Of a DNA stretch of 64,000 bases, positions 4,227 through 64,000 are shown piece after piece. This DNA is from an uncultured Fluviicola sp. (GTDB lineage: Bacteria; Bacteroidota; Bacteroidia; Flavobacteriales_D; Crocinitomicaceae). The stretch lies in the NCBI GenBank assembly GCA_964585545.1, contig CAZPDT010000016.1, positions 17,845-81,844 of the forward strand. Reading direction: 5' to 3'. The position numbers and the translations under genes are program-made. The notes below the pieces were generated by a model, which was given only the letters and a program-made list of their open reading frames with translations, was not told the origin of the DNA and did no database searches. Numbering within the stretch: position 1 is the stretch's first letter; every line of letters begins with the position of its first letter.

Positions 4227-4344
4227 TCTCGCCCGAATTATTTTAGATGGCAGATTTTAGATTTTTGAATACATCGGGTTAATAATGTGGGGTGCCCCTG
4301 AATTGCTCTTGAACAATAGGATTTTACTGATAAATTTGGCCAAT

Positions 4345-4378
4345 AAAAAAAGCAGCTCTATATAGAACTGCTTTTTTA
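4345..4378. terminator. Bidirectional rho-independent terminator between convergent genes
   Basis: AAAAAAAGCAGCTCTATATAGAACTGCTTTTTT forms an AGCAG/CTGCT stem flanked by an A-run and a T-run. Confidence 0.55.
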
Positions 4379-4390
4379 CTTTATTGAAAG

Positions 4391-4436
4391 TATTTTAGTT
4401 TAACCCGAACTATTGCTCAACGCAATTAATAGCTCG
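4391..4436 (-). repeat. Short member of a three-copy intergenic repeat family (see 14955-15023 and 21233-21300)
   Basis: TATTTTAG...GCTCAACGCAATTAATAGCTCGG matches the two ends of the copy at 14955-15023 (CATTTTAG...GCTCAACGCAGTTAATAGTTCGGG). It folds as CCGAACTATT/AATAGCTCGG. Confidence 0.6.
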
Positions 4437-4446
4437 GATAACTAGG

Positions 4447-33729: not shown

Positions 33730-34034
33730 TGCTATTTGTATTTGCGTTGTTTTGACTATATAGTGTCTGGTCGGTAACACAACAAATTCAAAATTGATTC
33801 TCTTTATAAATTCTATGGTATGGGTTTAAGTCACTATATTTCTTTGTATCCCCATTTTCAGGGCTTTTAACCACTAAATCATTATTCAAAAATATAGTAT
33901 TAAATCGTTTTCCCCATAAGGAACACCGGATCCGTCAACATGGTGTTCAGCGTTGTCCAACTTAGCGAAGCGATCTCATGACGGTAGGGAATAATCGGCA
34001 CACCGAACACTTAGTTATTTAGCGGCTGGTTTTA

Positions 34035-34302: not shown

Positions 34303-35526
34303 TTAAACTGGCTTGTAAAAATGAAACTTTAGCACTTTTAGAACGGTTTTGGGTAAAAATAACAGCTTTTTGAGCCGATTTAAGACATATTTGGCTATTT
34401 CCTTGGCTGTAACTCCCAGATTCACCATTCTTTTTAAGTTGTAAGCCAATGCAATTAAACCAAAATCTGCTTCTGCTCTATGAAGTCCTTTTTTGGTCAT
34501 GATGTGATCAAATCCCCACTGTCTTTTTATGGTTCCATAAGGATGTTCAACCAATGCTTGCCGTTGTTTATATAGTTTAATATTTTCGGCTACGCGATGT
34601 GCATTGTTTTGAATGTTTTGAGTGAATTCTGAGCGTTGAATAACTTTTCCGTTAATTTTTGAAGTGGTACACTCACTGCGAACAGGACATGTTTTACATG
34701 CCTTGGCTTTGTATTGTTTAAATCGGTAGTTTCTAGCTTTGTATTCGGTTTGATTTGAAATGAGTTCATTTCCTTGCGGACAAGTATAGCTGTCTGTTTT
34801 ATCGTTATAAATAAAGTTTTCCGAGTTATAAGCTGGGTTTGGAGCTTGACTGGATCTACCGATATTTGGAATGGCAACTAAGGTTTTTATTTCTAGATTA
34901 TCAGCGGTTTTAAATTCACTTCCTGTGTGATAACCTTTATCATAAAGCGCTGTAAATTTATTGGTTTTTAGAATGGTTTTTGCTCTTCGGAGCATCATTC
35001 CCATTGCCTTTTTATCGTTTTGGTTAGTGAGTTTATAGTCAAGTAATAATTTGTGTTTTGCATCAACGGTGGTTTGAGCGGTATAACAAACTTCGGTAAT
35101 TGTTCCTCTTACTATTTGATGCCTGCTGTCTAGATCGGAAGTGGAAAGTTGAGGGTTTTCGGAAGACTTATCTTCGTCTAGCTTTTCTTGTATTTGCTCA
35201 TACTTTTTACGCTGAGTCTTACGCAGTTCTACTTGTTTTTCTAACTTCTCTTTTTGATCTCCATCAGCTGTAGATAAGGCTGTATTGTGTTCTTCAAGCT
35301 TGTTGTCAATATACTCTAAATGACGTTTGATTTTCTTTTTATTGTAATTGTTCTTCTTACTGTTTTGTGCTCGTAGTTTAGTGGAGTCTCCAGCAATCAA
35401 AATTCCTCCAATAAGGTTAAAGTTTTTAGCAATTTCAACACTATAACGAAAAACACGCTTGATGGCTTTGGGGTTATCTTTTCTAAACCTGGCAATGGTA
35501 TTGTGATCTGGTTTTAGATTTTTCAA
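34303..35526 (-). CDS. IS1182-like transposase, catalytic (DDE) part
   Basis: (W)LLKNLKPDHNTIARFRKDNPKAIKRVF..., ...DKGYHTG..., a Cys cluster (CPQG...CKTCPVRSEC) and ...EHPYGTIKRQWG match the IS1182/IS5-type layout. The stop codon lies just outside the shared IS sequence. Confidence 0.75.
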   Translation of the reverse strand: MKNLKPDHNTIARFRKDNPKAIKRVFRYSVEIAKNFNLIGGILIAGDSTKLRAQNSKKNNYNKKKIKRHLEYIDNKLEEHNTALSTADGDQKEKLEKQVELRKTQRKKYEQIQEKLDEDKSSENPQLSTSDLDSRHQIVRGTITEVCYTAQTTVDAKHKLLLDYKLTNQNDKKAMGMMLRRAKTILKTNKFTALYDKGYHTGSEFKTADNLEIKTLVAIPNIGRSSQAPNPAYNSENFIYNDKTDSYTCPQGNELISNQTEYKARNYRFKQYKAKACKTCPVRSECTTSKINGKVIQRSEFTQNIQNNAHRVAENIKLYKQRQALVEHPYGTIKRQWGFDHIMTKKGLHRAEADFGLIALAYNLKRMVNLGVTAKEIAKYVLNRLKKLLFLPKTVLKVLKFHFYKPV

Positions 35527-35988
35527 AAGCCAAATTACTTCTAGATTACGATGACATTATTCACAAGTGTATATTTTTATAGGTGTTCATGAGATCGCTT
35601 TGCTAAGTTCTTTTTCTAATTGTCGGGAAGAACGCATGCGGTTCATGTAACCATAGATGTATAATTTTAATAAATCTGCGGGATTATACGGCGGTCTTCC
35701 CTGAGCAGGCAATGACTCAAATCCCATGTCATGTAAATTGAGGCTTTCTACAAACTCATCGATAAATCGTACGGAGTTGTCCTGTGGAATCATATCATCC
35801 ATACAAGTAGTGTATAAAGCCAGTTGTTGTCTGTTTTCTCCTTGTTGATATTCCATACTTAAAGATACGAAAAACCAAGGGTGGTTGGATATTTATGTTG
35901 GTAGGTTTTCAACAGAGTTATTAAGTTTTGAGACAGTCTGACGGTCTTGTATATGAAAAGTTGCGGATTTTATGCACTAACTTTTCGG
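34312..35988 (-). mobile_element. IS1182-family-like insertion sequence, copy A (about 1677 bp)
   Basis: Homology with copy B starts at CTTGTAAAAATGAAAC (34312). It fades through a diverged right end that finishes near ...CACTAACTTTTCGG (35988). The element carries a split DDE transposase. Confidence 0.7.
35587..35856 (-). CDS. IS1182-like transposase, N-terminal (DUF772-type) part
   Basis: MEYQQGENRQQLALYT...IPQDNSVRFID.FVESL...GRPPYNPADLLKLYIYGYMNRMRSSRQLEKE. It is in the same frame as the catalytic part but separated from it by TGA and TAA. Confidence 0.75.
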   Translation of the reverse strand: MEYQQGENRQQLALYTTCMDDMIPQDNSVRFIDEFVESLNLHDMGFESLPAQGRPPYNPADLLKLYIYGYMNRMRSSRQLEKELSKAIS

Positions 35989-36335
35989 ATTATAACGGAC
36001 CTTTAATTTATTCATTTTGTTTCGATTAAGCGATTAAACCGCTATTTTTTATATATTTTGTTGTACACTGGCTTTTTTCGTTCAGCTTGTCATTCAGCGT
36101 TGGCGAAAGACATACGCTGCCTGCAATTTTGGGCTTGAGCTCTGGCCGGTGCGAAACGATAGTTCACGAACACCAAAAAGTAATTTTAAAAACCGTGAGT
36201 AATTGCGAATGTGTATGGCTTTGTGCGTTGGCTTTCATCTAATTTATTTCATTTGATATAGGATTTTTACTCTCCGAAAAAACGATTCCATTCAGATAAT
36301 TTGAATCTGATGTTTTATCTGACTTTAACCATAGA

Positions 36336-39300
36336 TTAAACACTTAATATTGGCATTAATAAATCACGTAACTCAATTTTCATTGCTTTTAAGTTATTGC
36401 GTATCTCGTTGTCTTTTTCTCTGAGTTTTTGGTAGGCATTATGTATGATTGATATTTGCTCTTCTTGCGATTTACCTTCAATCGACTCAAAATCTCGTTC
36501 TGCATATTGAATAAAATGTAACCCTACTTTTTTAAACTCTTCTGGGAAATACAATTCAAAAACCATAGCATCTATTACTTCTTCAAAGGTTTCTGAAATA
36601 TGAGAGTTGGGAACGTGTTCGTTGAGTTGTTTGTCTTGAGCTAAAATGAAAAGAATGTAATCAACCAACTTTACATAAACTTCGACAGAAGTTGGCTTTT
36701 TTATAGGAATTCCTAACAATGGTTCTTTGTCAATCTGATAATTATTCCCTTGCATTTTACCTTTATATCTCAACCAAAATTTAACTAATGAAGAGTTGAA
36801 TAATGCTGTTAGATATTTTAAGTTAAATCTATTCGATTTTATCACATAGAATGTTGCAGATAAATAACTATCAAAATCAAGAAAGGTAAATATAGGTACC
36901 GAAGGACATTTTCTTTGAACAGCTATTTTTTCACCAATAAAAAAATCTTCTTTTCTTGCTCTGTGTAAACCGTATGGTTTATTATCTGATGTTATAATAT
37001 GTTGAAATTTATCTAAATGACTTTTCAAGTTAGGATAAGCATCTAATGAATTTTCCTTTTTAAAACTTGAATCTGTGTAAATAATGAACTTATCATTAGA
37101 TTTTTTTCCAAAGTATTTTTGAAAATGTCTTGTATCAGAATAATAACGCTTAAGAAAACTAATCTCGTTATCATTTAAATTTAAGCTTCCAACCTCATAA
37201 TGGTTTAAACCAAAAATACCATCTCCCACACGATAAGAGTTATCAAGTTTTGGTAACATTTTTTTTGCTACAAAATCATAATGAGGATGTATTCCATTTG
37301 CAACTTCAGAATCATTTAAAAAATGCACTTCATTGTCTAAAATTAGTTGTAAAGTATGCTCTACTTCAGGGCTGTTAAAAGTAATTAGTTTACCAACGTA
37401 ATTTTCAGAATCAAAATCTATAAAGTATTTTTTAGCAAACGTTTGATTTGTTTCAAAATTTAGAAAATCTGATAGTTGACTTTGTTTAATATCATCAATC
37501 AACACCGAATACTTTAGTGGATAATTTTCTCTTGGTGATTTTTTTTCGAAAACATATACCATTGTTTGTATTCCAGCGGTTTTAAATACTTTGTGATTCC
37601 AAAAATCGGTGAAGAGTTTAATTTCTGTTTCTTTTAAAACCTTAGTTCTAAATTTGGATGCACCTGCACTTGTTATCCAATTATTTTGAGCAATAAAACA
37701 CTCAATACCATTTAGTTTTAACAAGTCAATGCACTTGCAAGCAAATCCATACCATAAGTCCATCTTGCCTTGATAGTATGGTGAATCTCTAAATCCTTCA
37801 AAAGCTGATTTATTCGTATATTCTTTTATATACGGTGGATTACCAATCACAATATCAAAACCTTCAAAGTTTCCTTCTTTATCTAATAGATTAGGGAACT
37901 CAAAACGCCATTCTACAGCTTCTTTAAATATTTTGGCTTCTACTCGGTCTTTTTTCTCTTGTTCTAGTTTGGCTATTTCTTTCCTTAGTTTGGCGTTTCT
38001 ACGTTTTTCAGCAGCCGTTTGTTTGTGTTCAAATAAGCCTACGTTAATGTATTGGTTTAACTCATATTTTTTGTCATTCAGTTTTTTAGATTCCTTACTA
38101 GAAAAGTAGGTTTTAAAAGCACTTTTTACATCTTCTATAAGTTGCTTAAACTCTTCCTTTTTGTCGTGATTGGCTTCGTGCATATAGTCATTTACCAATG
38201 CCTTGTATTTATCTAAATCTACTTTATCTTCTTCTGCACGCCCTTTATTAAATTCTTTAAAAACTTGGTCTATAGGCGTGTCTAATTCATAACGACTTAT
38301 TAAAGAATTACCGCAAATAATTTTATAATCTAAGTTTGGTAATGGTCTTGGTGTAGGTTCGTCCACAACTAAAGACAACCAAAATCGTAATTGGGCAATA
38401 TCTACAGCACCTTCTTCAATATCTACACCATAAATAGAGTTTTCTATAATGCGTTCTTTTACCCTAGCAGGACTCCAAGCTTCGTAACCTTGCTCAAATG
38501 CAATGAGGCCTTTTAAGGCAAAAATTTCGTGTAATAATCCCATTGGGAATGCACCAGAACCAATGGCAGGGTCCAAAATTTTTACTTTGCTTAACAATGC
38601 GTTGATTTCCTCTAGTTCATTTTCTGTTAGTTTACCCTGTTTTTTTTGCTTTACGAAAATGCTAATATCTTCTTTAGCTGTAGTTGAAAGATGCGTATGC
38701 AAGTATTCTATTAAAGACTCTTGTGTCATATAATGCACAATTTCTTTAGGTGTATAAAACGCACCTTTGTCTTTGTTGTCTTCCAGTAAATTCTCAAAAA
38801 TGTGTCCTAACATTTCAGGGTCAACACCAATGTCTTGGTCATCAGGACTACTTTCGTCAACCGTAAAATTGTATTGGCTGAAAAAGGCTAGTAAATCTAT
38901 AAATCGTTGTGGTTCAAATTGTATGTCTATTGGCTCTACATTATCTTTTTCAAACAGACCTCCGTTTAAGTATGGGATACGTGAATTAGTAACCGAGAAA
39001 ATATCATTGTTTTCAGAACGGTCAGCATTTAAGGTTTCAAAGAATAAAGGTGCTAAAGCTTTTTCGTAGAAATTGTTTTTGTCTGGAAATTCTTCAAACA
39101 ATCGAAATAAAAAGTCTAGTTGTCCTTCGCCCCAATCTTTGTCTAAAGGCACACCCATCCAACCTTTTTTCTGTAGGAAGAACAAAAACACAATACGACC
39201 TAAAAACTTTTTCACAAAATCACTGACTAAATGTTCTGCTTTTTTGTGTTTGTCTTCCAAAGTACCATTGGTAGATACTTGGTTAAGAAAATGGGTAAAT

Positions 39301-39935
39301 GCTTTTGGGTTATCTACAATATAACTTACTAAGGTTTCGTATTGATGGAAATAACCATTGTAAAACTCTTTGGATAGTTTTTCTACGGAGAATGCTTTTA
39401 AAATATCTTCGAGTGTAAACTCTCTAGAATTGATCTGATTAAAAAGCCATTCAAACTGGTTTACAGCTGTTTTTACGGTTTCATTTTGACCTAGAAGGTA
39501 CGTATATCGTTTTGGATGCGTTTCAGTCTTCACTTCGTTGTTATCGGCATCCCAATACAATGATTTAGAAATAAAAGTAAATCGCCAATCTGAAGCTTTT
39601 TTGTTGTAATAGGTAATGATAGCACCATCTATATATCCAAAGCCAATTTCGCTAGACATTATGTTTCTCAGTCCAACTCTATTTCTGGTTACTTGTTGAT
39701 TTTCTTTCAATTCAACTTCGTAGAATTTAATTACTCTATCATCTGACAGGGTAATATCACCATATTCCCAAATGTGTTCTACATCTTTGTGTTTAACCAA
39801 TGAATCGTCTTTTAAATCCACTGGTGTTTCAAAGTAACTTGCAGAAATATCTCTAAAAAGTTCTTTTAAAAATCCCTTCCAAATTGAGCTTTGGTATGGA
39901 GATTTGAAAATATTATGTAATGTATCTTTATTCAC
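36336..39935 (-). CDS. Eco57I/MmeI-like (type IIG/IIL-like) N6-adenine DNA methyltransferase with a C-terminal target-recognition domain and a possible N-terminal D..ExK nuclease motif
   Basis: GTG start, 1199 aa. Motifs: GAFYTPKEIV (motif X), ILDPAIGSGAFP (motif I), YGVDIEEGAVDIAQLRFWL, CGNSLI and EWRFEFP...FDIVIGNPPYIKEY (motif IV NPPY). The TRD is TaqI_C-like (YLTALFNSSLVKFWL). The N-terminus GDITLSDDRVIKFYEVELK resembles the D-x9-ExK arrangement of MmeI. Confidence 0.75.
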   Translation of the reverse strand: MNKDTLHNIFKSPYQSSIWKGFLKELFRDISASYFETPVDLKDDSLVKHKDVEHIWEYGDITLSDDRVIKFYEVELKENQQVTRNRVGLRNIMSSEIGFGYIDGAIITYYNKKASDWRFTFISKSLYWDADNNEVKTETHPKRYTYLLGQNETVKTAVNQFEWLFNQINSREFTLEDILKAFSVEKLSKEFYNGYFHQYETLVSYIVDNPKAFTHFLNQVSTNGTLEDKHKKAEHLVSDFVKKFLGRIVFLFFLQKKGWMGVPLDKDWGEGQLDFLFRLFEEFPDKNNFYEKALAPLFFETLNADRSENNDIFSVTNSRIPYLNGGLFEKDNVEPIDIQFEPQRFIDLLAFFSQYNFTVDESSPDDQDIGVDPEMLGHIFENLLEDNKDKGAFYTPKEIVHYMTQESLIEYLHTHLSTTAKEDISIFVKQKKQGKLTENELEEINALLSKVKILDPAIGSGAFPMGLLHEIFALKGLIAFEQGYEAWSPARVKERIIENSIYGVDIEEGAVDIAQLRFWLSLVVDEPTPRPLPNLDYKIICGNSLISRYELDTPIDQVFKEFNKGRAEEDKVDLDKYKALVNDYMHEANHDKKEEFKQLIEDVKSAFKTYFSSKESKKLNDKKYELNQYINVGLFEHKQTAAEKRRNAKLRKEIAKLEQEKKDRVEAKIFKEAVEWRFEFPNLLDKEGNFEGFDIVIGNPPYIKEYTNKSAFEGFRDSPYYQGKMDLWYGFACKCIDLLKLNGIECFIAQNNWITSAGASKFRTKVLKETEIKLFTDFWNHKVFKTAGIQTMVYVFEKKSPRENYPLKYSVLIDDIKQSQLSDFLNFETNQTFAKKYFIDFDSENYVGKLITFNSPEVEHTLQLILDNEVHFLNDSEVANGIHPHYDFVAKKMLPKLDNSYRVGDGIFGLNHYEVGSLNLNDNEISFLKRYYSDTRHFQKYFGKKSNDKFIIYTDSSFKKENSLDAYPNLKSHLDKFQHIITSDNKPYGLHRARKEDFFIGEKIAVQRKCPSVPIFTFLDFDSYLSATFYVIKSNRFNLKYLTALFNSSLVKFWLRYKGKMQGNNYQIDKEPLLGIPIKKPTSVEVYVKLVDYILFILAQDKQLNEHVPNSHISETFEEVIDAMVFELYFPEEFKKVGLHFIQYAERDFESIEGKSQEEQISIIHNAYQKLREKDNEIRNNLKAMKIELRDLLMPILSV

Positions 39936-39937
39936 GA

Positions 39938-40948
39938 TTATTTTTCTTTTTTGATTTTGGATTCTAGGGCTTTTAATTCTTCTAAATCTTTTTTATCCGC
40001 TTGATTTGCTTCGTATGCTTTTCGCTTACTATCAAAAGACTTATAAATCTCTTTTACTTTCTTTTCCATCATAGCCTTACTAATGCTGCCTTTGCCTTTA
40101 AGCACTTTTTTATCATTAAACTCAAGAATAGCATCTACGTTTTTACGCCAGAAATTCATTGTTATATCCATTCTGTTTTTGGCTCTCAGCTCTGCGGTTT
40201 CAAGGAATATTACAACAAGTCTGTTTAAGGTGTCAATTTCATCTTCGGTTAAATAGTTTTTAGCAATGAAAATATCTTGTTTACGCACGATGCTTCCTTT
40301 CCAATTGGTTAAGGCCATATTAGGTTGGTTGGCATCGGCTCTTGACAAAATTATTTCGGCAGCAGTTTTATTTGTTACCGCATACAATAATTTATTTTGT
40401 GTTTCGGCAAAAAACATTTGCGTGGCTTTATCAGTTGGGTCATAATCGCTAGAAAGGGCAAATAAATCTCTTACTTTTTGATAAAAACGTTTTTCCGAAG
40501 CACGTATATCACGAATGCGAGCGAGTAATTCATCGAAATAGTCTGGTCTACCATCAGGATTTTTAAGACGTTCATCATCAATTATAAATCCTTTTATAAT
40601 ATATTGCTTTAAGTTTTGGTTTGCCCAAATACGAAATTGTGTTCCTCGTTTACTTCTCACCCTAAAACCAATGGCTAAAATCATTTCTAAACTGTAAAAA
40701 GTAACTTCGTAATTTTTGCCGTCTTGGGCAGTTGTCAAGTAATTCTTTACAACTGACTCCTCACTTAACTCATTGTCATTCAATATGTTTAATATGTGTT
40801 GGCTAATGTTTTGTTTAGAGGTGTCAAAAAGTTCAGCCAATTGATTTTGATTCATCCAAACTTGACCATCTTTGGCATATAAGGATACGGATGCTTTTCC
40901 GTCTGCCGTATTGTAAATAATTAAATTTTGTTCGTTTTTTTGTTCCAT
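39938..40948 (-). CDS. RhuM-family (Virulence_RhuM) protein
   Basis: LIIYNTADGKASVSLYAKDGQVWMNQNQLAELF.TSKQNISQHI.NI, YSLEMILAIGFRVRS.RGTQFR.WA and FYQKVRD.FALS.DY...... are typical RhuM blocks. Its stop lies 2 nt before the methyltransferase start. Confidence 0.75.
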   Translation of the reverse strand: MEQKNEQNLIIYNTADGKASVSLYAKDGQVWMNQNQLAELFDTSKQNISQHILNILNDNELSEESVVKNYLTTAQDGKNYEVTFYSLEMILAIGFRVRSKRGTQFRIWANQNLKQYIIKGFIIDDERLKNPDGRPDYFDELLARIRDIRASEKRFYQKVRDLFALSSDYDPTDKATQMFFAETQNKLLYAVTNKTAAEIILSRADANQPNMALTNWKGSIVRKQDIFIAKNYLTEDEIDTLNRLVVIFLETAELRAKNRMDITMNFWRKNVDAILEFNDKKVLKGKGSISKAMMEKKVKEIYKSFDSKRKAYEANQADKKDLEELKALESKIKKEK

Positions 40949-40960
40949 AATAACAATAAT

Positions 40961-43900
40961 TTAACCAGTGAATGATTCTGATATAATTATTTGAGGTTTT
41001 GAACTCAAAGGTGTCTTTGGTCGCTTTTTGGGTTCGTCATCAAACAATTCTTCCTTGATTTCTTCCAGTGGATAGCTCTTAATGATTTTCATCATTTCAT
41101 TAAATTCATCCACACGCTTCATCTTTTTAGAAACGCTTTCCTTTTTTAGCTTATTGATTTCTCGTGGAAGTTTTTGAAAACGACCTATTTCAATTGCTTT
41201 TTTTGCTTCTAATAATAACTCTTTTTCATCTTCAGAGGCATATTCTTGAAGAATAGTACCTTTAATAACTGCAATAGCTCTTTTTTCATTTGGTCCTAAT
41301 TTTACACTTGCTTTAGTACCTAAACTTAATAGGCTTTGGTCTTCCACAAATGAATCTAATGCTGTGTTAATCTGCTCATAATGGAATTCAGGCAGTTCTG
41401 TAGCTCGTTCTGTAATTTCAGCTTTATAAAGTCTTGCTGCTTCTACAAAGGTTAATTCTTCAATAGAATTATCAGTGTGCATTAAATAGTAAGCATCTCT
41501 TTTTTTGTTCTTTATGTATGCAATAGTTTGTCCTTTTACCGCTTTGTTTTTACGACCACATCTTGCTCTTCTCGGAATTTTATTCTTAATATATTGGTAT
41601 TGGTCAGGATTCTCTTCTCGGAATTTTCTGAGATAGTTTAAATATTCAAGACGTTCGTCTTTTTCTTCCTCTGGCAGTTGCTCAAACAAACCATAAGAAT
41701 CAAAATCCTCATTAGTAGAGTAAATTTGGCTATCCTCACCTAATGCTGAATGAAAAGCTTGTAATTTCATATAAGCTTTTTTATTCAATTCAATTTCTGT
41801 GTCGGCTTGTTCTGTAGGGAAGAAGTTAAAAATGTTTATAAATTGATAAGGTGTACCAACTCTATTTACACGTCCTATACGTTGCATTAGACGAGTTGCA
41901 TTCCAAGGAATATCATAATTGACAATAGTGTTGGAACGATGGAGGTTAACACCTTCCGCCAATACTTCTGTTGTGATAATTATATCGTAATCATTTTTAG
42001 CATCTGCAATGGTTTGATTAGCATCAAAGTTTTCGGCAATTGTATCTGTTAAATCTTTTGCATTTGAAGAATCAACACTTAAAATTCTTGAAAAACCATC
42101 ATTTTCCAATCTATTCATTAAATAGGCAGTTGTTTCTTTAGATTCAGAGAAAACAACCAACTTTTTACTTTTATTCACTTCTTCATTTAGTAAATCTGTT
42201 TTAAGCTTTTCAATGAATCTGTCATATTTAGGGTCGTAATCACCTATATTATCCCATTGTTCGACAAGTTTTTTAAGAATGATGTCATCATTTCTAATTC
42301 CCTCTTTAAATTCTTCTGAAAACTCCTCAATACCAAAAGCCTGAATTTTTGACGGGTCTTCAGCGTTTAAAAGTAATTCATCAAGTATTGCTTCATCATC
42401 ATTTAAAATATATTCACTTACACCCAATTTCGGTGCAATGTATATTTTACCATTTTCAATCATTTTGAGCATTGCCCTGTTAGCATCATAGAATCGATTA
42501 AGACTCATTTTAAAAGCGTGAAAAGAACTATCTATCCTTTTTACAAGCAAAATTTTCATAATCACAGCCAATTGCTCTGATATTCTATTGGCTTGATTGG
42601 GATCCACACCAGTTGTCTTTTTGTATTGCTTTTTGGCTTCATCACTCATATATTTTATCGCCTGATAACGATAATAGCTTAAACCACCTTTACTGTCCTT
42701 GACAATTTTTATAGTTTGGTCGTAAAGGTCATTTACCTCTTCATTTAATTGATAAAGTATTTGTTTAGGTGGAATTATGTCAGGAAAAGTAAATCCTTGT
42801 TCATTTATATCTTCTAAATAGCTTGTTGTGTTTTTAATGTCAGTTCTAGTTCTTCTAACGATGATTGGTTCGAGAACTTTGTTTCTTATTTCTTCATAAA
42901 TTTCTTTAACACCTTGAGCTATTTTAATGTGGTCTTGCTCTTTTTTAAGTTTATTGTATTTATCAATTAAGGGTCTAAAAAAATGCTGTAAGTTACCAAC
43001 TTCAAGAGTTGATTGTTTAGAATCTTGAAAAAGATATAATTGGTTTCTAATATCCTGAGGTCTGTTATTTAGTGGAGTAGCTGTAACAAGAATTACTTTT
43101 TTCTTGTCAGACAAATCGTTTCCTTTTCTTTTTCTTTTAGTCTTACATAGTTTCTGTAATTGATGAAACATTTCTGATTCATCAGAACGAAATTTATGAG
43201 CTTCATCAACTATAATTAAATCATAATCCTCAGGATGTTTAATTTTATGTAACGAACCATTTGTTACAAAGTCAATGTTCGGCACTTCAAAATCACGAAT
43301 TGTTTTTTTCCAACTTTTCTCGACTGCTGGAGGATAGATTACCAGTGTTTTAGTTCTATAACCATTTGCGAAGTAGAATTTTTTTGCAATGATGGTTGCA
43401 ATAATGGTTTTACCTAGCCCAACTACATCTGCTAAAATAAACCCTGAGTGTTTCAGTAATTTGGAATATCCATCATTTACAGCATCAATTTGGTAGGCGA
43501 GTTTTTTATAACCTTTTGGTAAATCGGTTATGGACTCTGGGTCATATTCAATAGATTTCCCAAAATATTCAATGAGTAACTTTATGTATATTTCAAAAGG
43601 AGTAAACTGGTCGCTTAGATGAGTTGTGTTTTTTACTTTTTGAACTGTTTCAGGCAAAATGTCTATTGCCTCTTTCCATAAATCCTCAAATGTTTTTGTA
43701 GCGAAAGCCACATCATCATAATAAGGTAATAAAACATTGAATTCAAAGTTTTTTTCAATTCCAGATACGGAAAGGTTTGAAGAACCTGTAATTACTCTTC
43801 CTGGATTATGTTCATTCCATAGAGCAGGTCTGAAAATGTATATTTTGGCGTGAATATTTTTGTTTGGATGAGCTTTAATTTCAATTTTCCCTTTGGTAAT

Positions 43901-44245
43901 ATCATCAACAAACTGAACTATACCATCTTCTACATTTTTTGAATAATCAGATTGCTCAATATCACTTTTCAAGTCTCTCATAAACTCTTCTCTAGTGACA
44001 TTTGTATTAAAATTAAATTCAAGTCCTTTTCTAGCTGCTTCACTTATTAGATGGTCAACATCGATTCCAACTAAAATTCGAATCTTTTCGACATCTTTTA
44101 AATATTCTCTAATTCTGAAATAACCTGATGAACGAAAATAACCTACAAGAGCATCAAAGACATTTACTTCTGTATGCTCAAATATTCCCTTAAATTTATT
44201 TAAAAGAGTATTGTCCTCTTTGTTGGTGAAAAACTTTGTACTCAT
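40961..44245 (-). CDS. PLD-family nuclease domain fused to an SNF2/DEAH superfamily-2 helicase
   Basis: The N-terminal single HKD-like motif is NIHAKIYIF...VITGSSNLSVSG. Helicase motifs: I LADVVGLGKTIIA, II IIVDEAHKFR, III LVTATPLNN, V TEVLAEGVNL, VI PWNATRLMQRIGRVNRVG. 1094 aa. Confidence 0.8.
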   Translation of the reverse strand: MSTKFFTNKEDNTLLNKFKGIFEHTEVNVFDALVGYFRSSGYFRIREYLKDVEKIRILVGIDVDHLISEAARKGLEFNFNTNVTREEFMRDLKSDIEQSDYSKNVEDGIVQFVDDITKGKIEIKAHPNKNIHAKIYIFRPALWNEHNPGRVITGSSNLSVSGIEKNFEFNVLLPYYDDVAFATKTFEDLWKEAIDILPETVQKVKNTTHLSDQFTPFEIYIKLLIEYFGKSIEYDPESITDLPKGYKKLAYQIDAVNDGYSKLLKHSGFILADVVGLGKTIIATIIAKKFYFANGYRTKTLVIYPPAVEKSWKKTIRDFEVPNIDFVTNGSLHKIKHPEDYDLIIVDEAHKFRSDESEMFHQLQKLCKTKRKRKGNDLSDKKKVILVTATPLNNRPQDIRNQLYLFQDSKQSTLEVGNLQHFFRPLIDKYNKLKKEQDHIKIAQGVKEIYEEIRNKVLEPIIVRRTRTDIKNTTSYLEDINEQGFTFPDIIPPKQILYQLNEEVNDLYDQTIKIVKDSKGGLSYYRYQAIKYMSDEAKKQYKKTTGVDPNQANRISEQLAVIMKILLVKRIDSSFHAFKMSLNRFYDANRAMLKMIENGKIYIAPKLGVSEYILNDDEAILDELLLNAEDPSKIQAFGIEEFSEEFKEGIRNDDIILKKLVEQWDNIGDYDPKYDRFIEKLKTDLLNEEVNKSKKLVVFSESKETTAYLMNRLENDGFSRILSVDSSNAKDLTDTIAENFDANQTIADAKNDYDIIITTEVLAEGVNLHRSNTIVNYDIPWNATRLMQRIGRVNRVGTPYQFINIFNFFPTEQADTEIELNKKAYMKLQAFHSALGEDSQIYSTNEDFDSYGLFEQLPEEEKDERLEYLNYLRKFREENPDQYQYIKNKIPRRARCGRKNKAVKGQTIAYIKNKKRDAYYLMHTDNSIEELTFVEAARLYKAEITERATELPEFHYEQINTALDSFVEDQSLLSLGTKASVKLGPNEKRAIAVIKGTILQEYASEDEKELLLEAKKAIEIGRFQKLPREINKLKKESVSKKMKRVDEFNEMMKIIKSYPLEEIKEELFDDEPKKRPKTPLSSKPQIIISESFTG

Positions 44246-44520
44246 AAGGTTTTAATAATTTTTTTTAGACCATCTTTAAGGTATGTTAATTCTCCTAAAT
44301 CCGTAATTACCGCTGATTGAATGAATTCCAATTCGACTTCTTTTTCTGTCTTATCAAGAGAATCTGCCAATGTTGGAATCATATCTATAGTGGCTCTCCT
44401 TTCGTTCCTTTCAATCTTACTTAATATCGATGTATCGATATCAAGTGCAGCTGCAACTTTACGTAAAGGCAAACCTTTCTCTTCTCTTAAATTTCTAATG
44501 TATTCTCCAAATGATTTCAT
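44242..44520 (-). CDS. XRE-family helix-turn-helix regulator (controller-protein-like)
   Basis: FGEYIRNLREEKGLPLRKVAAALDIDTSILSKIERNERR is an HTH_3 pattern. Its stop overlaps the helicase start by 4 nt. Confidence 0.75.
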   Translation of the reverse strand: MKSFGEYIRNLREEKGLPLRKVAAALDIDTSILSKIERNERRATIDMIPTLADSLDKTEKEVELEFIQSAVITDLGELTYLKDGLKKIIKTL

Positions 44521-44656: not shown

Positions 44657-44748
44657 TATGTGGCTGGTTTCGTTTCGTAGCTTGTGTACAACGGCAGTCT
44701 GTCTCATAACCAACCATAAAACCTATAAAAATAAGAAACTTTGCTGAT

Positions 44749-45993
44749 TCACAGCATTTTCAACCCCAAAACTAATGACTTGTAAAAATGAAACTTTAGC
44801 ACTTTTAGAACGGTTTTGGGTAAAAATAACAGCTTTTTGAGCCGATTTAAGACATATTTGGCTATTTCCTTGGCTGTAACTCCCAGATTCACCATTCTTT
44901 TTAAGTTGTAAGCCAATGCAATTAAACCAAAATCTGCTTCTGCTCTTTGAAGTCCTTTTTTGGTCATGATGTGATCAAATCCCCATTGTCTTTTCATGGT
45001 TCCGTAAGGGTGTTCAACTAATGCTTGCCGTTGTTTGTAAAGTTCAAGGTTTTTAGCTACACGTTTGGCGTTGTTCTGTATGTTTTGAGTAAATTCAGAA
45101 CGTTGAATGACTTTTCCGTTAATTTTTGAAGTGGTACACTCACTGCGTACAGGACAGGTTTTACACGCCTTGGTTTTGTATTGTTTAAATCGGTAGTTTC
45201 TAGCTTTGTATTCGGTTTGATTTGAAATGAGTTCATTTCCTTGCGGACAAGTATAGCTGTCTGTTTTATCGTTATAAATAAAGTTTTCCGAGTTATAAGC
45301 TGGGTTTGGAGCTTGACTGGATCTACCGATATTTGGAATGGCAACTAAGGTTTTTATTTCTAGATTATCAGCGGTTTTAAATTCACTTCCTGTGTGATAA
45401 CCTTTATCATAAAGCGCTGTAAATTTATTGGTTTTTAGAATGGTTTTTGCTCTTCGGAGCATCATTCCCATTGCCTTTTTATCGTTTTGGTTAGTGAGTT
45501 TATAGTCAAGTAATAATTTGTGTTTTGCATCAACGGTGGTTTGAGCGGTATAACAAACTTCGGTAATTGTTCCTCTTACTATTTGATGCCTGCTGTCTAG
45601 ATCGGAAGTGGAAAGTTGAGGGTTTTCGGAAGACTTATCTTCGTCTAGCTTTTCTTGTATTTGCTCATACTTTTTACGCTGAGTCTTACGCAGTTCTACT
45701 TGTTTTTCTAACTTCTCTTTTTGATCTCCATCAGCTGTAGATAAGGCTGTATTGTGTTCTTCAAGCTTGTTGTCAATATACTCTAAATGACGTTTGATTT
45801 TCTTTTTATTGTAATTGTTCTTCTTACTGTTTTGTGCTCGTAGTTTAGTGGAGTCTCCAGCAATCAAAATTCCTCCAATAAGGTTAAAGTTTTTAGCAAT
45901 TTCAACACTATAACGAAAAACACGCTTGATGGCTTTGGGGTTATCTTTTCTAAACCTGGCAATGGTATTGTGATCTGGTTTTAGATTTTTCAA
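44749..45993 (-). CDS. IS1182-like transposase, catalytic part (copy B)
   Basis: 414 aa and near-identical to copy A apart from a cluster of substitutions (AKRVAKNLELY vs AHRVAENIKLY, and others). The C-terminal tail differs because it is read from flanking DNA. Confidence 0.75.
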   Translation of the reverse strand: MKNLKPDHNTIARFRKDNPKAIKRVFRYSVEIAKNFNLIGGILIAGDSTKLRAQNSKKNNYNKKKIKRHLEYIDNKLEEHNTALSTADGDQKEKLEKQVELRKTQRKKYEQIQEKLDEDKSSENPQLSTSDLDSRHQIVRGTITEVCYTAQTTVDAKHKLLLDYKLTNQNDKKAMGMMLRRAKTILKTNKFTALYDKGYHTGSEFKTADNLEIKTLVAIPNIGRSSQAPNPAYNSENFIYNDKTDSYTCPQGNELISNQTEYKARNYRFKQYKTKACKTCPVRSECTTSKINGKVIQRSEFTQNIQNNAKRVAKNLELYKQRQALVEHPYGTMKRQWGFDHIMTKKGLQRAEADFGLIALAYNLKRMVNLGVTAKEIAKYVLNRLKKLLFLPKTVLKVLKFHFYKSLVLGLKML

Positions 45994-46456
45994 AAGCCAA
46001 ATTACTTCTAGATTACGATGACATTATTCACAAGTGTATATTTTTATAGGTGTTCATGAGATCGCTTTGCTAAGTTCTTTTTCTAATTGTCGGGAAGAAC
46101 GCATGCGGTTCATGTAACCATAGATGTATAATTTTAATAAATCTGCGGGATTATACGGCGGTCTTCCCTGAGCAGGCAATGACTCAAATCCCATGTCATG
46201 TAAATTGAGGCTTTCTACAAACTGATCGATAAATCGCACTGAATTGTCCTGTGGAATCATATCATCCAAACAAGTAGTGTATAAAGCTAACTGCTGACGG
46301 TTTTCTCCTTGTTGATATTCCATACTTAAAGATACGAAAAACCAAGGGTGGTTTGACATTTATGTTGGTAGGTTTTCAACAGAGTTATTAAGTTTTGAGA
46401 CAGTCTGACGGACTCGGGTATGAGTAGTTGCGTGGGTTAGCACTTAACTTTGCAAG
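44778..46456 (-). mobile_element. IS1182-family-like insertion sequence, copy B (about 1679 bp)
   Basis: The left end CTTGTAAAAATG... and right end ...AACTTTGCAAG form an imperfect terminal inverted repeat (CTTGTAAA / TTTGCAAG). It has the same split transposase as copy A. Confidence 0.7.
46054..46323 (-). CDS. IS1182-like transposase, N-terminal part (copy B)
   Basis: The ATG at 46323 gives MEYQQGENRQQ.... It differs from copy A at two residues (CLDDM, IDQFV). Confidence 0.75.
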   Translation of the reverse strand: MEYQQGENRQQLALYTTCLDDMIPQDNSVRFIDQFVESLNLHDMGFESLPAQGRPPYNPADLLKLYIYGYMNRMRSSRQLEKELSKAIS

Positions 46457-46596: not shown

Positions 46597-47520
46597 ATGG
46601 AAAAGAAAAAGTATACATGGTTAAATTCCAAGCCCAATAGTGCGAAAACACTGATTGAGAGAGCAAAAAAAGAAGTGCCATTTTTCAGAGAACACTATTC
46701 CAAGTTTGAAGAACAAATGACTATTGGAGGTTATTCCCAAAGCACCTTGTTTAATTATTCGAGAGCAGTTGCGAAGGTGAGTTTACATTTTAAAAAGTCT
46801 TTATTGGATTTAGATCCAGACGAAGTAAATCAGTGGTTGTTTTTATTGGCTAAGGAAAAAACAGCGAGTTCAACGTATTTTAAACATACGGTTTATGGAC
46901 TTCGTTTCTTCTTTCGCTTGTATGAAATGGAAGATAGAGTGCTCAAATTACCTACCATTAAGAACGATAGAAAACTTCCTGTTGTTTTTTAAAGAGAAGA
47001 GCTTCGCATACTTTTTAATACACCACAAAGATTAAAACAACGGTTTTTATTTTCGCTTATTTATTCTGGAGGACTTCGTGTAGGTGAAGTTTGTCGATTA
47101 AAAATTACGGATATCGACAAAGATAGAATGCAAATTCGAGTTGTCAAAAGCAAGGGAAATCACGACCGATATGTTCCTCTTAGTAAATTGATTTTAATTG
47201 GTTTGGATAAATACCTGCGCAGTTCACTTCCTGTAACTTATCTTTTTAATGGTAAAATTAAAGGAGAACCTTTGGGACATGGTGCGGTTCAGCAGTCTTT
47301 TCGATTGGCATTAAAACAAGCTAATATTCTGAAGGAGGCTTCTGTTCATACATTGAGACATTCTTTTGCAACTCATTTACTGGAAGATGGAGTTGATATT
47401 GTTACTATAAAAGAACTTTTAGGACATGTTAATATCGAAACGACAATGATGTATCTGCATGTGGCAAAGTGCAATAGAGTCGAAGCATGTAGTCCGTTTG
47501 ATTCACTTTACAAGAAGTAA
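46597..47520 (+). pseudogene. Tyrosine recombinase/integrase interrupted by an in-frame TAA at 46990-46992
   Basis: The N-terminal SAM-like domain (131 aa) ends in KLPVVF-TAA. The same frame continues REELRILFNTPQRLKQRFLFSLIYSGGLRVGEVCRL... (catalytic Arg), HTLRHSFATHLL, LLGH and MMYLHV (catalytic Tyr). Confidence 0.75.
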
Positions 47521-63288: not shown

Positions 63289-63397
63289 GGGCTAAAAGCT
63301 GGCGGGCATTAGAAAGCACTTACCTGTCGGACTGCACAAAGTTTATAAATTGCACAACGGCTCAGTTTAGTACTGCCCGCCCGCTTGATTTTAGCCC
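63289..63397. other. Large imperfect palindrome directly abutting the left end of integrase/IS91 copy 2
   Basis: The arms are GGGCTAAAAGCTGGCGGGC (63289-63307) and GCCCGCCCGCTTGATTTTAGCCC (63375-63397), separated by a 67-nt spacer. Confidence 0.55.
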
Positions 63398-63398
63398 A

Positions 63399-64000
63399 TG
63401 TTGAACTCAACCTTCGGTAGCTAAAGTACAAAATTCACCGTACACATCAATAACATAAAACTTATTGATATGGAAAAGAAAAAGTATACATGGTTAAATT
63501 CCAAGCCCAATAGTGCGAAAACACTGATTGAGAGAGCAAAAAAAGAAGTGCCATTTTTCAGAGAACACTATTCCAAGTTTGAAGAACAAATGACTATTGG
63601 AGGTTATTCCCAAAGCACCTTGTTTAATTATTCGAGAGCAGTTGCGAAGGTGAGTTTACATTTTAAAAAGTCTTTATTGGATTTAGATCCAGACGAAGTA
63701 AATCAGTGGTTGTTTTTATTGGCTAAGGAAAAAACAGCGAGTTCAACGTATTTTAAACATACGGTTTATGGACTTCGTTTCTTCTTTCGCTTGTATGAAA
63801 TGGAAGATAGAGTGCTCAAATTACCTACCATTAAGAACGATAGAAAACTTCCTGTTGTTTTTTAAAGAGAAGAGCTTCGCATACTTTTTAATACACCACA
63901 AAGATTAAAACAACGGTTTTTATTTTCGCTTATTTATTCTGGAGGACTTCGTGTAGGTGAAGTTTGTCGATTAAAAATTACGGATATCGACAAAGATAGA
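63399..64000 (+). mobile_element. Integrase/IS91 element, copy 2 (left 602 nt; runs off the window)
   Basis: I noticed no differences from 46526-47127 (offset 16873). It has the same orientation. Confidence 0.8.
63470..64000 (+). pseudogene. Tyrosine integrase copy 2, same in-frame TAA (63863-63865), partial
   Basis: The 131-aa N-terminal ORF is identical to copy 1. The frame continues REELRILFNTPQRLKQ... after the TAA. Confidence 0.7.

What the first reader, a model, noticed from the sequence alone, without database searches (positions are those of the whole stretch)
35557..35607. Identical 51-nt in-frame insert with two stop codons splits the IS1182-like transposase at a conserved junction in both copies
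Seen in the sequence: the N-terminal ORF (...NRMRSSRQLEKE) and the catalytic ORF (CHRNLEVIWLLKNLKPDHNTIARFRK...) are in the same reading frame. They are separated by CTT AGC AAA GCG ATC TCA TGA ACA CCT ATA AAA ATA TAC ACT TGT GAA TAA (35607 down to 35557; copy B 46074 down to 46024). Established knowledge: IS1182/IS5-type transposases read straight through this region as ...SSRKLE(R/K)EC.RN.E..WL.... Removing exactly these 51 nt would therefore restore a canonical single ORF (SSRQLEKE-CHRNLEVIW). The two IS copies have diverged by many substitutions on both sides. Even so, both halves stay open and the insert is unchanged, which is not what neutral decay would give. Inference: the insert may be functional. 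It could be (a) an internal promoter-like cassette (the minus strand reads TATAAAAATATACACTTG) that lets the DNA-binding N-terminal domain and the catalytic domain be expressed separately as regulator and enzyme. It could be (b) a recoding or bypass signal. Or it could be (c) a tiny inserted element flanked by a GAA...GAA repeat.
Basis: partly seen in the sequence, partly recalled or inferred. Interest (0 to 1): 0.65.

Follow-up and report, generated by a model that had tools for sequence, protein, structure and literature searches.

The report
Tiny mobile insert splitting a transposase
The 51 bases are a copy of a very small, non-coding mobile DNA element, widespread in Bacteroidota, that has dropped cleanly into a fixed spot of an IS1182 transposase gene and most likely switches it off; it matters because so small an element returns to the same site with such precision.

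Summary
An identical 51-nt, in-frame, two-stop insert sits between codons E83 and C84 of both IS1182 copies, and removing it restores a canonical transposase.

The two copies are 100% identical over 1,049 nt around the insert, which is a recombination tract. Other insert-bearing copies match insert-free copies at 1524 of 1524 nt once the 51 nt are removed.

The insert belongs to a dispersed family of 35-57-nt elements that I call E. Its pattern is (A)CTTAGCG.AGCGATCTCATGAACACC, then an A/T-rich stretch, then GTGARTAA. About 60 copies turned up in Flavobacteriia, Sphingobacteriia, Cytophagia and Bacteroidia. Most are intergenic, but some lie inside a group II intron RT gene and in the IS's own 5' UTR.

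The same E (48/51 nt) occupies the same codon junction in a second IS1182 lineage that is only 56% identical in protein and has its own intact relatives (96%). E is therefore gained or lost as a clean unit, in a homing-like way, with no inverted ends and no clear target duplication.

It most likely inactivates the transposase. I found no evidence for RNA removal, ribosomal bypass or a promoter function. The enzyme that moves E is unknown. I found no Rfam family and no paper that holds the sequence.

The parts
35557..35607 (-). Element E (long form, 51 nt) inserted between codons E83 and C84 of the transposase gene of IS copy A
   Evidence: Exact match. The gap-free homologue alignment shows it is an insertion. 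The empty site GAAAAAGAA|TGTCATCG is seen in L068-L073.
46024..46074 (-). Identical E copy in IS copy B
34312..35943 (-). IS1182-family copy A. It has the left end CGTCAGACTGTCTC but loses homology right after ...TTTTTACAAG and lacks the last ~87 nt, including the right inverted repeat, so it is 3'-truncated.
44692..46410 (-). IS1182-family copy B with both ends present: left IR CGTCAGACTGTCTC and right IR GAGACAGACTGCCG (12/14 match)
35587..35856 (-). N-terminal ORF of copy A (89 aa). It encodes the first half of DUF772, then reads 6 codons into E (LSKAIS) and stops at the TGA.
34303..35556 (-). Open frame for the catalytic part of copy A (CHRNLEVIW... to the stop). The first start-like codon is the TTG at 35526, and there is no ATG near the 5' end.
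46054..46323 (-). N-terminal ORF of copy B, counted from the MEYQQ start. The ORF listing extends it to an upstream ATG at 46359.
44749..46023 (-). Open frame for the catalytic part of copy B
34708..35756 (.). 1,049-nt tract that is 100% identical to 45175-46223 in copy B. It is a recombination or gene-conversion tract and contains E.
   Evidence: The flanking IS segments differ at 8.6% and 9.3% of positions.
33960..33994 (+). Short-form E (35 nt: ACTTAGCGAAGCGATCTCATGACGGTAGGGAATAA), intergenic
   Evidence: nhmmer hit covering the 22-nt 5' block; sequence read. The same short form is a clean insertion in the IS 5' UTR of L011.
36151..36202 (+). Diverged long-form E-like copy (GCGAAACGATAGTTCACGAACACC...CCGTGAGTAA), intergenic
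   Evidence: Weak nhmmer hit, E = 0.27; sequence read

Best explanation
The 51 nt are one copy of a very small, non-coding, orientation-specific mobile DNA element, which I call E. The long form is 48-57 nt and the short form about 35 nt. It has a conserved 27-nt 5' block, (A)CTTAGCG.AGCGATCTCATGAACACC, then a free A/T-rich stretch of about 15-25 nt, then a conserved 3' block, GTGARTAA.

E is dispersed in Bacteroidota genomes. It inserted at the DNA level, as a clean unit with no other change, after the GAA of codon 83 of an IS1182-family transposase gene. That position is in the middle of the DUF772 domain. E carries stops in all three forward frames, so the gene is cut into an 89-aa N-terminal fragment and a catalytic fragment with no proper start. 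This most likely disables the transposase and leaves copies that could move only with enzyme supplied in trans.

The insert is the same in both window copies for two reasons. The copies share a recent 1,049-nt recombination tract, and E itself spreads to this one site in a homing-like way.

What is shown: E is an insertion; it belongs to a dispersed family; clean presence/absence alleles exist; it was acquired independently at the same site in distant IS1182 lineages.

What is inferred: that it inactivates the transposase, and that a trans-acting enzyme moves it. That enzyme is unknown; a single-strand HUH/Y1-type or another site-specific enzyme is my guess.
For: It is an insertion in a conserved domain.

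It belongs to a dispersed family:
- A 22-mer from the insert hits 12 loci in species genomes.
- A degenerate 26-mer hits 49 metagenome loci.
- The unit boundaries are the same everywhere, and lengths run from 48 to 57 nt.
- Most copies are intergenic with no consistent neighbouring gene.
- E-like copies are present in plasmids of the cultured Cytophagia strains Fulvitalea axinellae (read in full) and Aureibacter tunicatorum (weak partial hit), and none of these hits overlaps an annotated gene.

Clean filled and empty alleles exist:
- L064 and L065 minus the 51 nt are 1524/1524 nt identical to the intact CDS in L068, L071, L072 and L073.
- L011 carries an extra 34-nt short-form E in the IS 5' UTR that five sister copies lack.

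The acquisition is homing-like:
- The window copy B backbone differs from the L064 backbone at 54 of 1524 nt, yet the 51 nt are identical.
- The nearest backbone differences lie 21 nt upstream and 12 nt downstream of E.
- L046 is an IS1182 with only 56% protein identity and has its own intact relatives at 96, 94 and 93%.
- L046 carries E at the same E|C junction, 48/51 nt identical including the otherwise unique loop ATACACTT.

There is a recombination tract between the window copies.

Some E-bearing copies are decaying:
- L002 has an internal deletion and, with L056, a C18F change.
- L011 and L061 have Y57N. Both changes are at invariant residues.
- Comparisons within the E-bearing clade give 5-6 non-synonymous against 0-1 synonymous changes.

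The window copies show 1 and 0 deviations at 213 near-invariant columns, which fits recent inactivation.
Against: No enzyme, no inverted ends and no clear target duplication were found, so the way E moves is unexplained. No Y1/HUH gene turned up in 504 kb of E-flanking DNA, and a hairpin in E has no covariation support.

The direction of the event, insertion or precise excision, cannot be told from alleles.

Inactivation is inferred, not measured. Five of six full-length E-bearing copies still have both halves open. Every E-type copy seen inside a gene or its 5' UTR lies in the sense orientation.

In four of these insertions the TCA-[T/C]GA of E is in the upstream reading phase, which a purely DNA-level story does not predict.
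Confidence: 0.78

Rival explanations
1. E is tolerated because it is taken out of the message or skipped by the ribosome, as in the T4 gene 60 hop or the mitochondrial 'byp' elements. E-bearing transposase and RT genes would then still make full-length protein.
For: - Every E-type copy seen inside a gene or its 5' UTR lies in the sense orientation: two IS1182 lineages, the IS 5' UTR, and at least five copies in a group II intron RT gene.
- In four independent ORF insertions the TCA-[T/C]GA of E is in the upstream frame.
- One RT ORF carries at least five stop-containing inserts, yet its exons align gap-free with GsI-IIC RT at E = 2.6e-88.
- Among three insert-sharing copies of that RT, dN/dS is 0.06-0.09 at dS of about 0.4, while the inserts differ by only 4-7.5%.
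- E is identical in IS backbones with dS of 0.11.
Against: - The low dN/dS is explained without function. E-free alleles with an otherwise identical CDS exist, and E clearly moves between diverged backbones.
- Forms lacking inserts 1, 2 and 5 cleanly, and the insert-4 region as a sequence replacement, stand in DNA runs as well as in runs labelled RNA.
- The 51-nt-less IS contigs are diverged copies, or differ by GAA>GAG at the junction.
- E-bearing contigs are present in the libraries labelled transcriptomic.
- There is no matched take-off and landing pair. The GAA near the 3' end is followed by TAA and is ACA or GCA in L002, L011 and L066.
- The first stop comes 7 codons into E, not right after a take-off codon.
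- Invariant-residue changes and a deletion occur in some E-bearing copies.
Confidence: 0.09
2. E is a regulatory cassette kept by the IS, as in the reader's option (a). It would be an internal promoter or stop-restart module that lets the N-terminal DNA-binding part act as an inhibitor and the catalytic part be made separately.
For: The 89-aa fragment keeps half of DUF772. Both halves are open in five of six full-length E-bearing copies. E is present in several genomes.
Against: - E is not specific to the IS. Most copies are intergenic or in unrelated genes.
- There is no sigma-70-type promoter in the insert.
- The TATA..CTTG string lies in the variable part of E.
- No in-frame start follows E; the next start-like codon is a TTG 33 nt downstream, which would lose 11 invariant residues.
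- The split falls in the middle of a domain.
- Identical E-free alleles exist.
Confidence: 0.04
3. The insert is a one-off piece of junk DNA in one IS copy that was copied to the second copy by gene conversion. On this view it is not a mobile element of its own.
For: The 1,049-nt identical tract shows that the two window copies did exchange sequence.
Against: The same unit, with the same boundaries, occurs at about 60 other places in at least four classes of Bacteroidota. It also occurs in an IS1182 lineage far too diverged for homologous exchange.
Confidence: 0.01
4. E spreads only by short-patch homologous recombination between copies of its host elements, with no machinery of its own.
For: The host elements are multicopy, and a recombination tract is seen in the window. 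E copies lie in tandem and inverted repeats that invite recombination.
Against: Flanking markers 12-21 nt away are not co-transferred. The L046 flanks share only short identical runs with the window IS, the longest being 12 nt. E also sits at many unrelated intergenic sites.
Confidence: 0.06

Closest known systems
REP / REPIN elements moved by RAYT (TnpA-Y1, HUH) transposases, including the Bacteroidetes-specific subclass 2.6 with 'atypical secondary structures' (PMC6006769)
   Same: Both are very small, non-coding, dispersed and mostly extragenic, with many copies per genome and no gene of their own, so they must be moved in trans. REP insertions inside genes are on record for subclass 2.4 (PMC6006769).
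   Different: E has no GTAG or CGTC tag and no clear palindrome: only 4 conserved potential pairs and no covariation. No Y1 gene was found near any copy. E inserts precisely at one codon junction of IS1182 genes.
IS200/IS605-type single-strand transposition and its miniature derivatives (PATEs)
   Same: Both insert in one orientation, make no target duplication, and insert just 3' of a short motif. For E the 5' flank is nearly always A and often GAA.
   Different: Those elements need a sub-terminal hairpin at each end and are over 100 nt long. E is 35-57 nt with at most one weak hairpin.
MITEs nested in other mobile elements
   Same: Both are non-autonomous insertions that break a transposase gene.
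   Different: E has no terminal inverted repeats, no clear target duplication and no resemblance to the ends of the IS it sits in.
T4 gene 60 50-nt coding gap and mitochondrial 'byp' elements of Magnusiomyces
   Same: All are inserts of about 50 nt, mobile, in the sense orientation inside ORFs, and carry stops. The gene 60 gap is itself part of a mobile cassette (bioRxiv 10.1101/2022.08.31.505936, abstract seen).
   Different: E has no matched take-off and landing codons and no stop directly after a take-off codon. Most E copies are intergenic, and there is no evidence that the host protein is made.
Rickettsia palindromic elements (RPEs) inside protein-coding genes (from my own knowledge: Ogata et al. 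2000)
   Same: Both are small selfish repeats that insert inside ORFs.
   Different: RPEs are 100-150 nt, in frame, free of stops and translated. E carries stops in all three forward frames.

Membership tests
IS1182 family (the host element) | The transposase matches the curated IS1182 model above its cut-off | tested here: met
   NF033551 at 1e-102, 344.6 bits against a cut-off of 270, for the fused protein. DUF772 plus DDE_Tnp_1_6 also match.
IS1182 family (the host element) | Terminal inverted repeats at both ends | tested here: met
   Copy B has CGTCAGACTGTCTC and GAGACAGACTGCCG, a 12/14 match. Copy A lacks the right end.
MITE | Terminal inverted repeats | tested here: not met
   The 5' block ACTTAGCG... 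and the 3' block ...GTGAATAA are not complementary.
MITE | Target-site duplication | tested here: inconclusive
   Only a 1-2-nt A/AA ambiguity is seen at the two filled/empty pairs. Position -2 of the flank varies, while the last two bases of E are conserved.
REP / REPIN-RAYT | Palindromic hairpin with a conserved 5' tetranucleotide (GTAG or CGTC) | tested here: not met
   Neither tag is present. The potential stem is 4 conserved pairs. In the shuffle controls, 64-69 of 500 shuffles reach the observed values for helix B, and helix A does not vary at all.
REP / REPIN-RAYT | A cognate Y1 (HUH) transposase gene in the genome, often flanked by the repeats | tested here: inconclusive
   A motif scan of 504 kb around E copies found none. 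Whole genomes of E-bearing strains were not available to me.
IS200/IS605-type miniature elements | Sub-terminal hairpins at both ends, with no target duplication and insertion 3' of a short motif | tested here: not met
   The absence of duplication and the 5'-flank preference for A/GAA fit. There is no room or evidence for two hairpins.
Programmed translational bypass (gene 60 type / byps) | Identical take-off and landing codons that bracket the gap and restore the frame | tested here: not met
   GAA...GAA would be followed by TAA. The second GAA is ACA or GCA in L002, L011 and L066.
Programmed translational bypass (gene 60 type / byps) | A full-length protein is made from the interrupted gene | not testable with these tools
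   Only assembled contigs of metagenome runs were available.
Self-splicing introns (group I / II) or a known RNA family | Ribozyme core, or a match to a curated RNA family | tested here: not met
   No Rfam match to E at the gathering score or at E up to 5. At 51 nt it is far below ribozyme size.

The most novel reading that the evidence does not exclude
E-type mini-inserts, together with the 24-nt and 14-nt GC-hairpin inserts seen with them, would be a bacterial counterpart of the mitochondrial 'byp' elements and the T4 gene 60 gap. They would be mobile 35-57-nt cassettes that home into coding sequences of other mobile elements and are skipped or removed during expression. A reverse-transcriptase gene with five or more stop-containing inserts, or an E-bearing transposase gene, would then still yield working protein.
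Probability: 0.08. Interest if true: 0.95.

Novelty: new variant of a known kind. Interest (0 to 1): 0.6.

Why it matters
If E is what it appears to be, it is among the smallest mobile DNA units known. It has no gene, no inverted ends and no clear target duplication. It still lands again and again at one codon junction of transposase genes that are only 56% identical in protein, and it riddles a group II intron RT gene with inserts.

That makes it a parasite of parasites. It may silence insertion sequences and retroelements in Bacteroidota, and it points to an unidentified, highly site-specific DNA-insertion activity.

There is also a practical side. E explains a class of 'split transposase' pseudogene calls in Bacteroidota annotation.

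Tried and rejected
- **Rfam.** I searched at the gathering threshold on 12 loci and at E up to 5 on 7 loci. Nothing matched the element.
- **Literature.** Full-text searches for the sequence itself and for bypassing, MITE and REP terms with Bacteroidetes found no description of this element. One paper gives a lead on Bacteroidetes Y1 transposases.
- **RNA-level removal.** I laid contigs of 8 metagenome and 'transcriptomic' runs on the IS and on the RT gene. Forms that skip inserts 1, 2 and 5 exist, and the insert-4 region appears as a sequence replacement. However, they also stand in DNA runs, are diverged, or differ at the junction, so they are separate insert-free copies. No raw-read RNA run of an E-bearing isolate was on offer.
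- **Hairpin in E.** RNAalifold gave no consensus structure. Two hand-drawn helices showed conserved bases but no covariation beyond the shuffles.
- **A guide-like role for the variable loop.** The loop differs between copies at the same site, so I rejected this.
- **Target site resembling E's own 5' tail.** This is striking at the IS1182 site, with 8-9 of 12 matches. It is not general: the mean is 3.7 against 3.2 in controls.
- **A conserved mini-ORF.** I considered MNT... on the sense strand and MRSLR on the reverse strand. Lengths and stops vary, so I rejected both.
- **Partner enzyme.** A motif scan for a Y1/HUH partner gene near E copies found none.
- **Phage and viral collections.** No E was found.
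- **dN/dS as a test of function.** It first looked supportive, with w of 0.06-0.15. It was then explained by identical insert-free alleles.

Full report
**1. The observation**

The 51-mer occurs exactly twice in the window, at 35557-35607 and 46024-46074 on the minus strand, with no match expected by chance. On that strand it reads CTT AGC AAA GCG ATC TCA TGA ACA CCT ATA AAA ATA TAC ACT TGT GAA TAA. It lies between ...CAA TTA GAA AAA GAA and TGT CAT CGT AAT....

With the 51 nt removed, the protein is an IS1182-family transposase. It hits NF033551 at 1e-102, 344.6 bits against a cut-off of 270. The Pfam DUF772 match runs unbroken over the junction, residues 53-120. More than 100 intact homologues of 500-530 aa, up to 94% identical, read SSRQLEKECHRNLEVIWLL with no gap.

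So this is a true insertion in the middle of a conserved domain. It has two in-frame stops, and from the sequence itself it also has stops in the other two forward frames.

**2. Why 'unchanged despite divergence' is not evidence of selection**

The two IS copies do differ, at 19 of 204 positions on the 5' side and 35 of 408 on the 3' side. Between those segments, however, they are identical over 1,049 nt, 34708-35756 against 45175-46223. The insert lies inside that tract. This is the signature of recent recombination or gene conversion between two diverged copies.

Copy A is also truncated. It loses homology after ...TTTTTACAAG at 34312 and lacks the right inverted repeat that copy B has at 44692-44705.

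**3. The insert is a member of a dispersed family**

A 22-mer from the insert matched 12 loci in a one-genome-per-species collection. A degenerate 26-mer matched 49 metagenome loci. Only a minority of these are the same IS.

In all of them the similarity starts and stops at the same bases as in the window. The pattern is (A)CTTAGCG[A/C/T]AGCGATCTCATGAACACC, then 15-25 variable A/T-rich bases, then GTGA[A/G]TAA. Total length is 48-57 nt. I call this unit E.

- **Hosts.** Named hosts include Mucilaginibacter, a Sphingobacteriaceae MAG, Brumimicrobium, Flavobacterium and Bacteroidia MAGs. Plasmids of the cultured Cytophagia strain Fulvitalea axinellae carry E-like copies, and a plasmid of Aureibacter tunicatorum gave a weak partial hit; none of these hits overlaps an annotated gene.
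- **Context.** Most copies are intergenic. They often follow a pyrimidine/purine hairpin, and the neighbouring genes show no pattern.
- **Arrangement.** Copies occur singly, as inverted pairs about 400 nt apart, and inside 210-nt and 323-nt tandem repeats.
- **In the window.** A profile search found a 35-nt short form at 33960-33994(+) and a diverged long form at 36151-36202(+).
- **Known families.** No Rfam family matches. No paper in the library holds the sequence. No copy is in the phage or viral collections.

**4. E is gained or lost as a clean unit**

- **Identical alleles.** Two E-bearing IS copies from ENA assemblies, L064 and L065, become 1524/1524 nt identical to intact copies once the 51 nt are taken out. 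The intact copies come from Logan assemblies of other runs (L068, L071, L072, L073) and encode protein P0133 of 507 aa. They read GAAAAAGAA|TGTCATCG at the site.
- **A second filled/empty pair.** In L011 the same IS carries a further 34-nt short-form E in its 5' UTR that five sister copies lack. Both filled/empty pairs show only a 1-2-nt A/AA ambiguity at the borders.
- **Same E in diverged backbones.** The backbone of window copy B differs from that of L064 at 54 of 1524 positions (dS 0.11), yet the 51 nt are identical. Backbone differences lie as close as 21 nt upstream and 12 nt downstream of E.
- **Same site in a distant lineage.** L046 is a different IS1182 whose transposase is only 56% identical to the window's. 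It has its own intact relatives at 96, 94 and 93% identity. It carries E at exactly the same E|C codon junction. That E is 48/51 nt identical to the window's, including the loop ATACACTT, which no other E copy has. The immediate flanks in L046 are its own, not the window's.

Shared ancestry cannot explain this, and ordinary homologous exchange is unlikely given such flanks. E reaches this site on its own, in a homing-like manner, or is excised from it precisely.

**5. What E does to the IS**

Translation from the normal start reads six codons into E (LSKAIS) and stops. The catalytic frame has no ATG near its start. The first start-like codon is a TTG 33 nt downstream, past 11 invariant residues.

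Whole-gene dN/dS between E-bearing copies is low, at 0.12-0.15. This loses its force once identical E-free alleles are known, because the divergence was laid down in E-free lineages.

Where E-bearing copies can be compared within their own clade, the pattern is that of decay:
- There are 5-6 non-synonymous against 0-1 synonymous changes in the N-terminal ORF.
- C18F (L002, L056) and Y57N (L011, L061) fall at residues invariant in the homologues.
- L002 has an internal deletion.

The two window copies show 1 and 0 deviations at 213 near-invariant columns, against a mean of 1.09 for intact proteins. They are recently hit, not yet decayed. I therefore take insertional inactivation as the most likely effect. 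This step is inferred, not measured.

**6.

- **Promoter.** No sigma-70-type site lies in the insert. The TATA...CTTG string is in the freely varying part of E. The scan does not cover Bacteroidota-type promoters.
- **Bypass.** The only matched codon pair, GAA...GAA, would put TAA in the A site. The second GAA is ACA or GCA in sister copies. The first stop is 7 codons into E.
- **RNA removal.** Contigs lacking the 51 nt exist in metagenome and 'transcriptomic' runs. They are either about 10% diverged or differ by GAA>GAG at the junction, so they come from other, intact copies. E-bearing contigs are present in the same libraries.

**7. The unexplained part: the group II intron**

In L049 and L029 a group II intron RT gene is broken by at least five small sense-strand inserts. 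Three are diverged E relatives, one is a canonical E, and there is also a 24-nt element and a 14-nt GC-hairpin element. L021 carries a canonical E with the same 5' flank as the L029 copies, but its sequence after that E is unrelated to the RT gene.

The exons nevertheless align gap-free across junctions 1 and 2 with GsI-IIC RT at E = 2.6e-88. Junction 3 closes once insert 3 is defined as 24 nt, and the insert-4 region was reconstructed by hand with its exact borders unresolved.

Three copies that share the inserts have dS of 0.38-0.42 and dN/dS of 0.06-0.09 in the exons, while the inserts differ by only 4-7.5%. One copy, L029a, has two further inserts.

Every E-type copy inside a gene or its 5' UTR is in the sense orientation. 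In four of them the TCA-[T/C]GA of E is in the upstream frame.

This could mean that the inserts are tolerated. It is equally explained by recent homing of inserts into already diverged copies. Forms lacking inserts 1, 2 and 5 cleanly, and the insert-4 region as a sequence replacement, stand in DNA runs. I keep the recoding reading as a low-probability alternative.

**8. How E moves**

This is not solved.
- E has no inverted ends and no clear target duplication.
- It is always one way round relative to its own polarity, and the base before it is nearly always A, often GAA.
- A short stem (UCAU/GUGA or CAC/GUG) is possible but has no covariation support.
- The IS1182 target looks like E's own 5' tail (TTAGA.AA.GAA against TTAGC.AAGCGA, 8-9 of 12), but other sites do not.
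- No Y1/HUH gene lies in 504 kb of flanking DNA.

A published survey notes Bacteroidetes-specific Y1 transposases (subclass 2.6) flanked by atypical structures that recur in the genome. It also notes REP insertions inside genes for subclass 2.4 (PMC6006769). That is a lead, not a test.

**9. Verdict**

The thing itself is more interesting than a plain pseudogene. It is a 35-57-nt, gene-less element of Bacteroidota that homes precisely into other mobile elements. As far as I could find, it is undescribed.

Noticed in passing
window 36336-44520 (minus strand), bracketed by IS copies at 34312-35943 and 44692-46410: The two direct IS1182 copies flank four genes: an HTH regulator, a PLD-nuclease/SNF2-helicase protein (1094 aa), a RhuM-family protein and an Eco57I-type N6-methyltransferase (1199 aa). 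This is a restriction/defence island in a composite-transposon-like layout. One flanking IS is truncated and both are split by E.
   Followed up: partly
window 46597-47520 (+), stop at 46990-46992; repeat at 63389-63688: A tyrosine-recombinase gene next to IS copy B is interrupted by a single in-frame TAA (...KLPVVF*REELRILF...). A 300-nt stretch covering its upstream region and about the first 220 nt recurs at 99% identity near the end of the window.
   Followed up: no
L049 (minus strand, about 3700-5400), L029: The group II intron RT ORF also holds two other kinds of mini-insert. One is a 24-nt element, CGCCGAAGGCAGCAGCGAAGCTAA. It occurs once in sense with a stop, and once antisense near the N-terminus, where it is in frame and open. 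The other is a 14-nt palindrome, TCCCGAAGCTTCGG.
   Followed up: partly
L029 (two intron copies), L021: In the two L029 copies the 5' two-thirds of the RT ORF are missing, with the breakpoint exactly at the 5' border of E. In L021 the same 5' flank and E are followed by unrelated sequence. This suggests that E copies act as recombination points that delete or rearrange DNA. L029a has gained two more inserts relative to L029b and L049.
   Followed up: partly
window 35608 and L049 4498 (junction base before E): Insert-free contigs of both the IS and the RT gene in the same metagenomes carry the synonymous change GAA>GAG at the base just before the insertion point. This may be a target-site variant that escapes E.
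   Followed up: no
L009 6404-6903; L057 4690-5109; L023 6038-6521: E copies form an inverted pair about 400 nt apart with flanking hairpins. They also sit inside 210-nt and 323-nt tandem repeats, so E is a module of larger lineage-specific intergenic repeats.
   Followed up: partly
window 4896-5621 and 6040-6512: Two pairs of diverged tandem direct repeats: 300-nt copies 426 nt apart at 79% identity, and 236-nt copies 237 nt apart at 76%. I did not examine them further.
   Followed up: no
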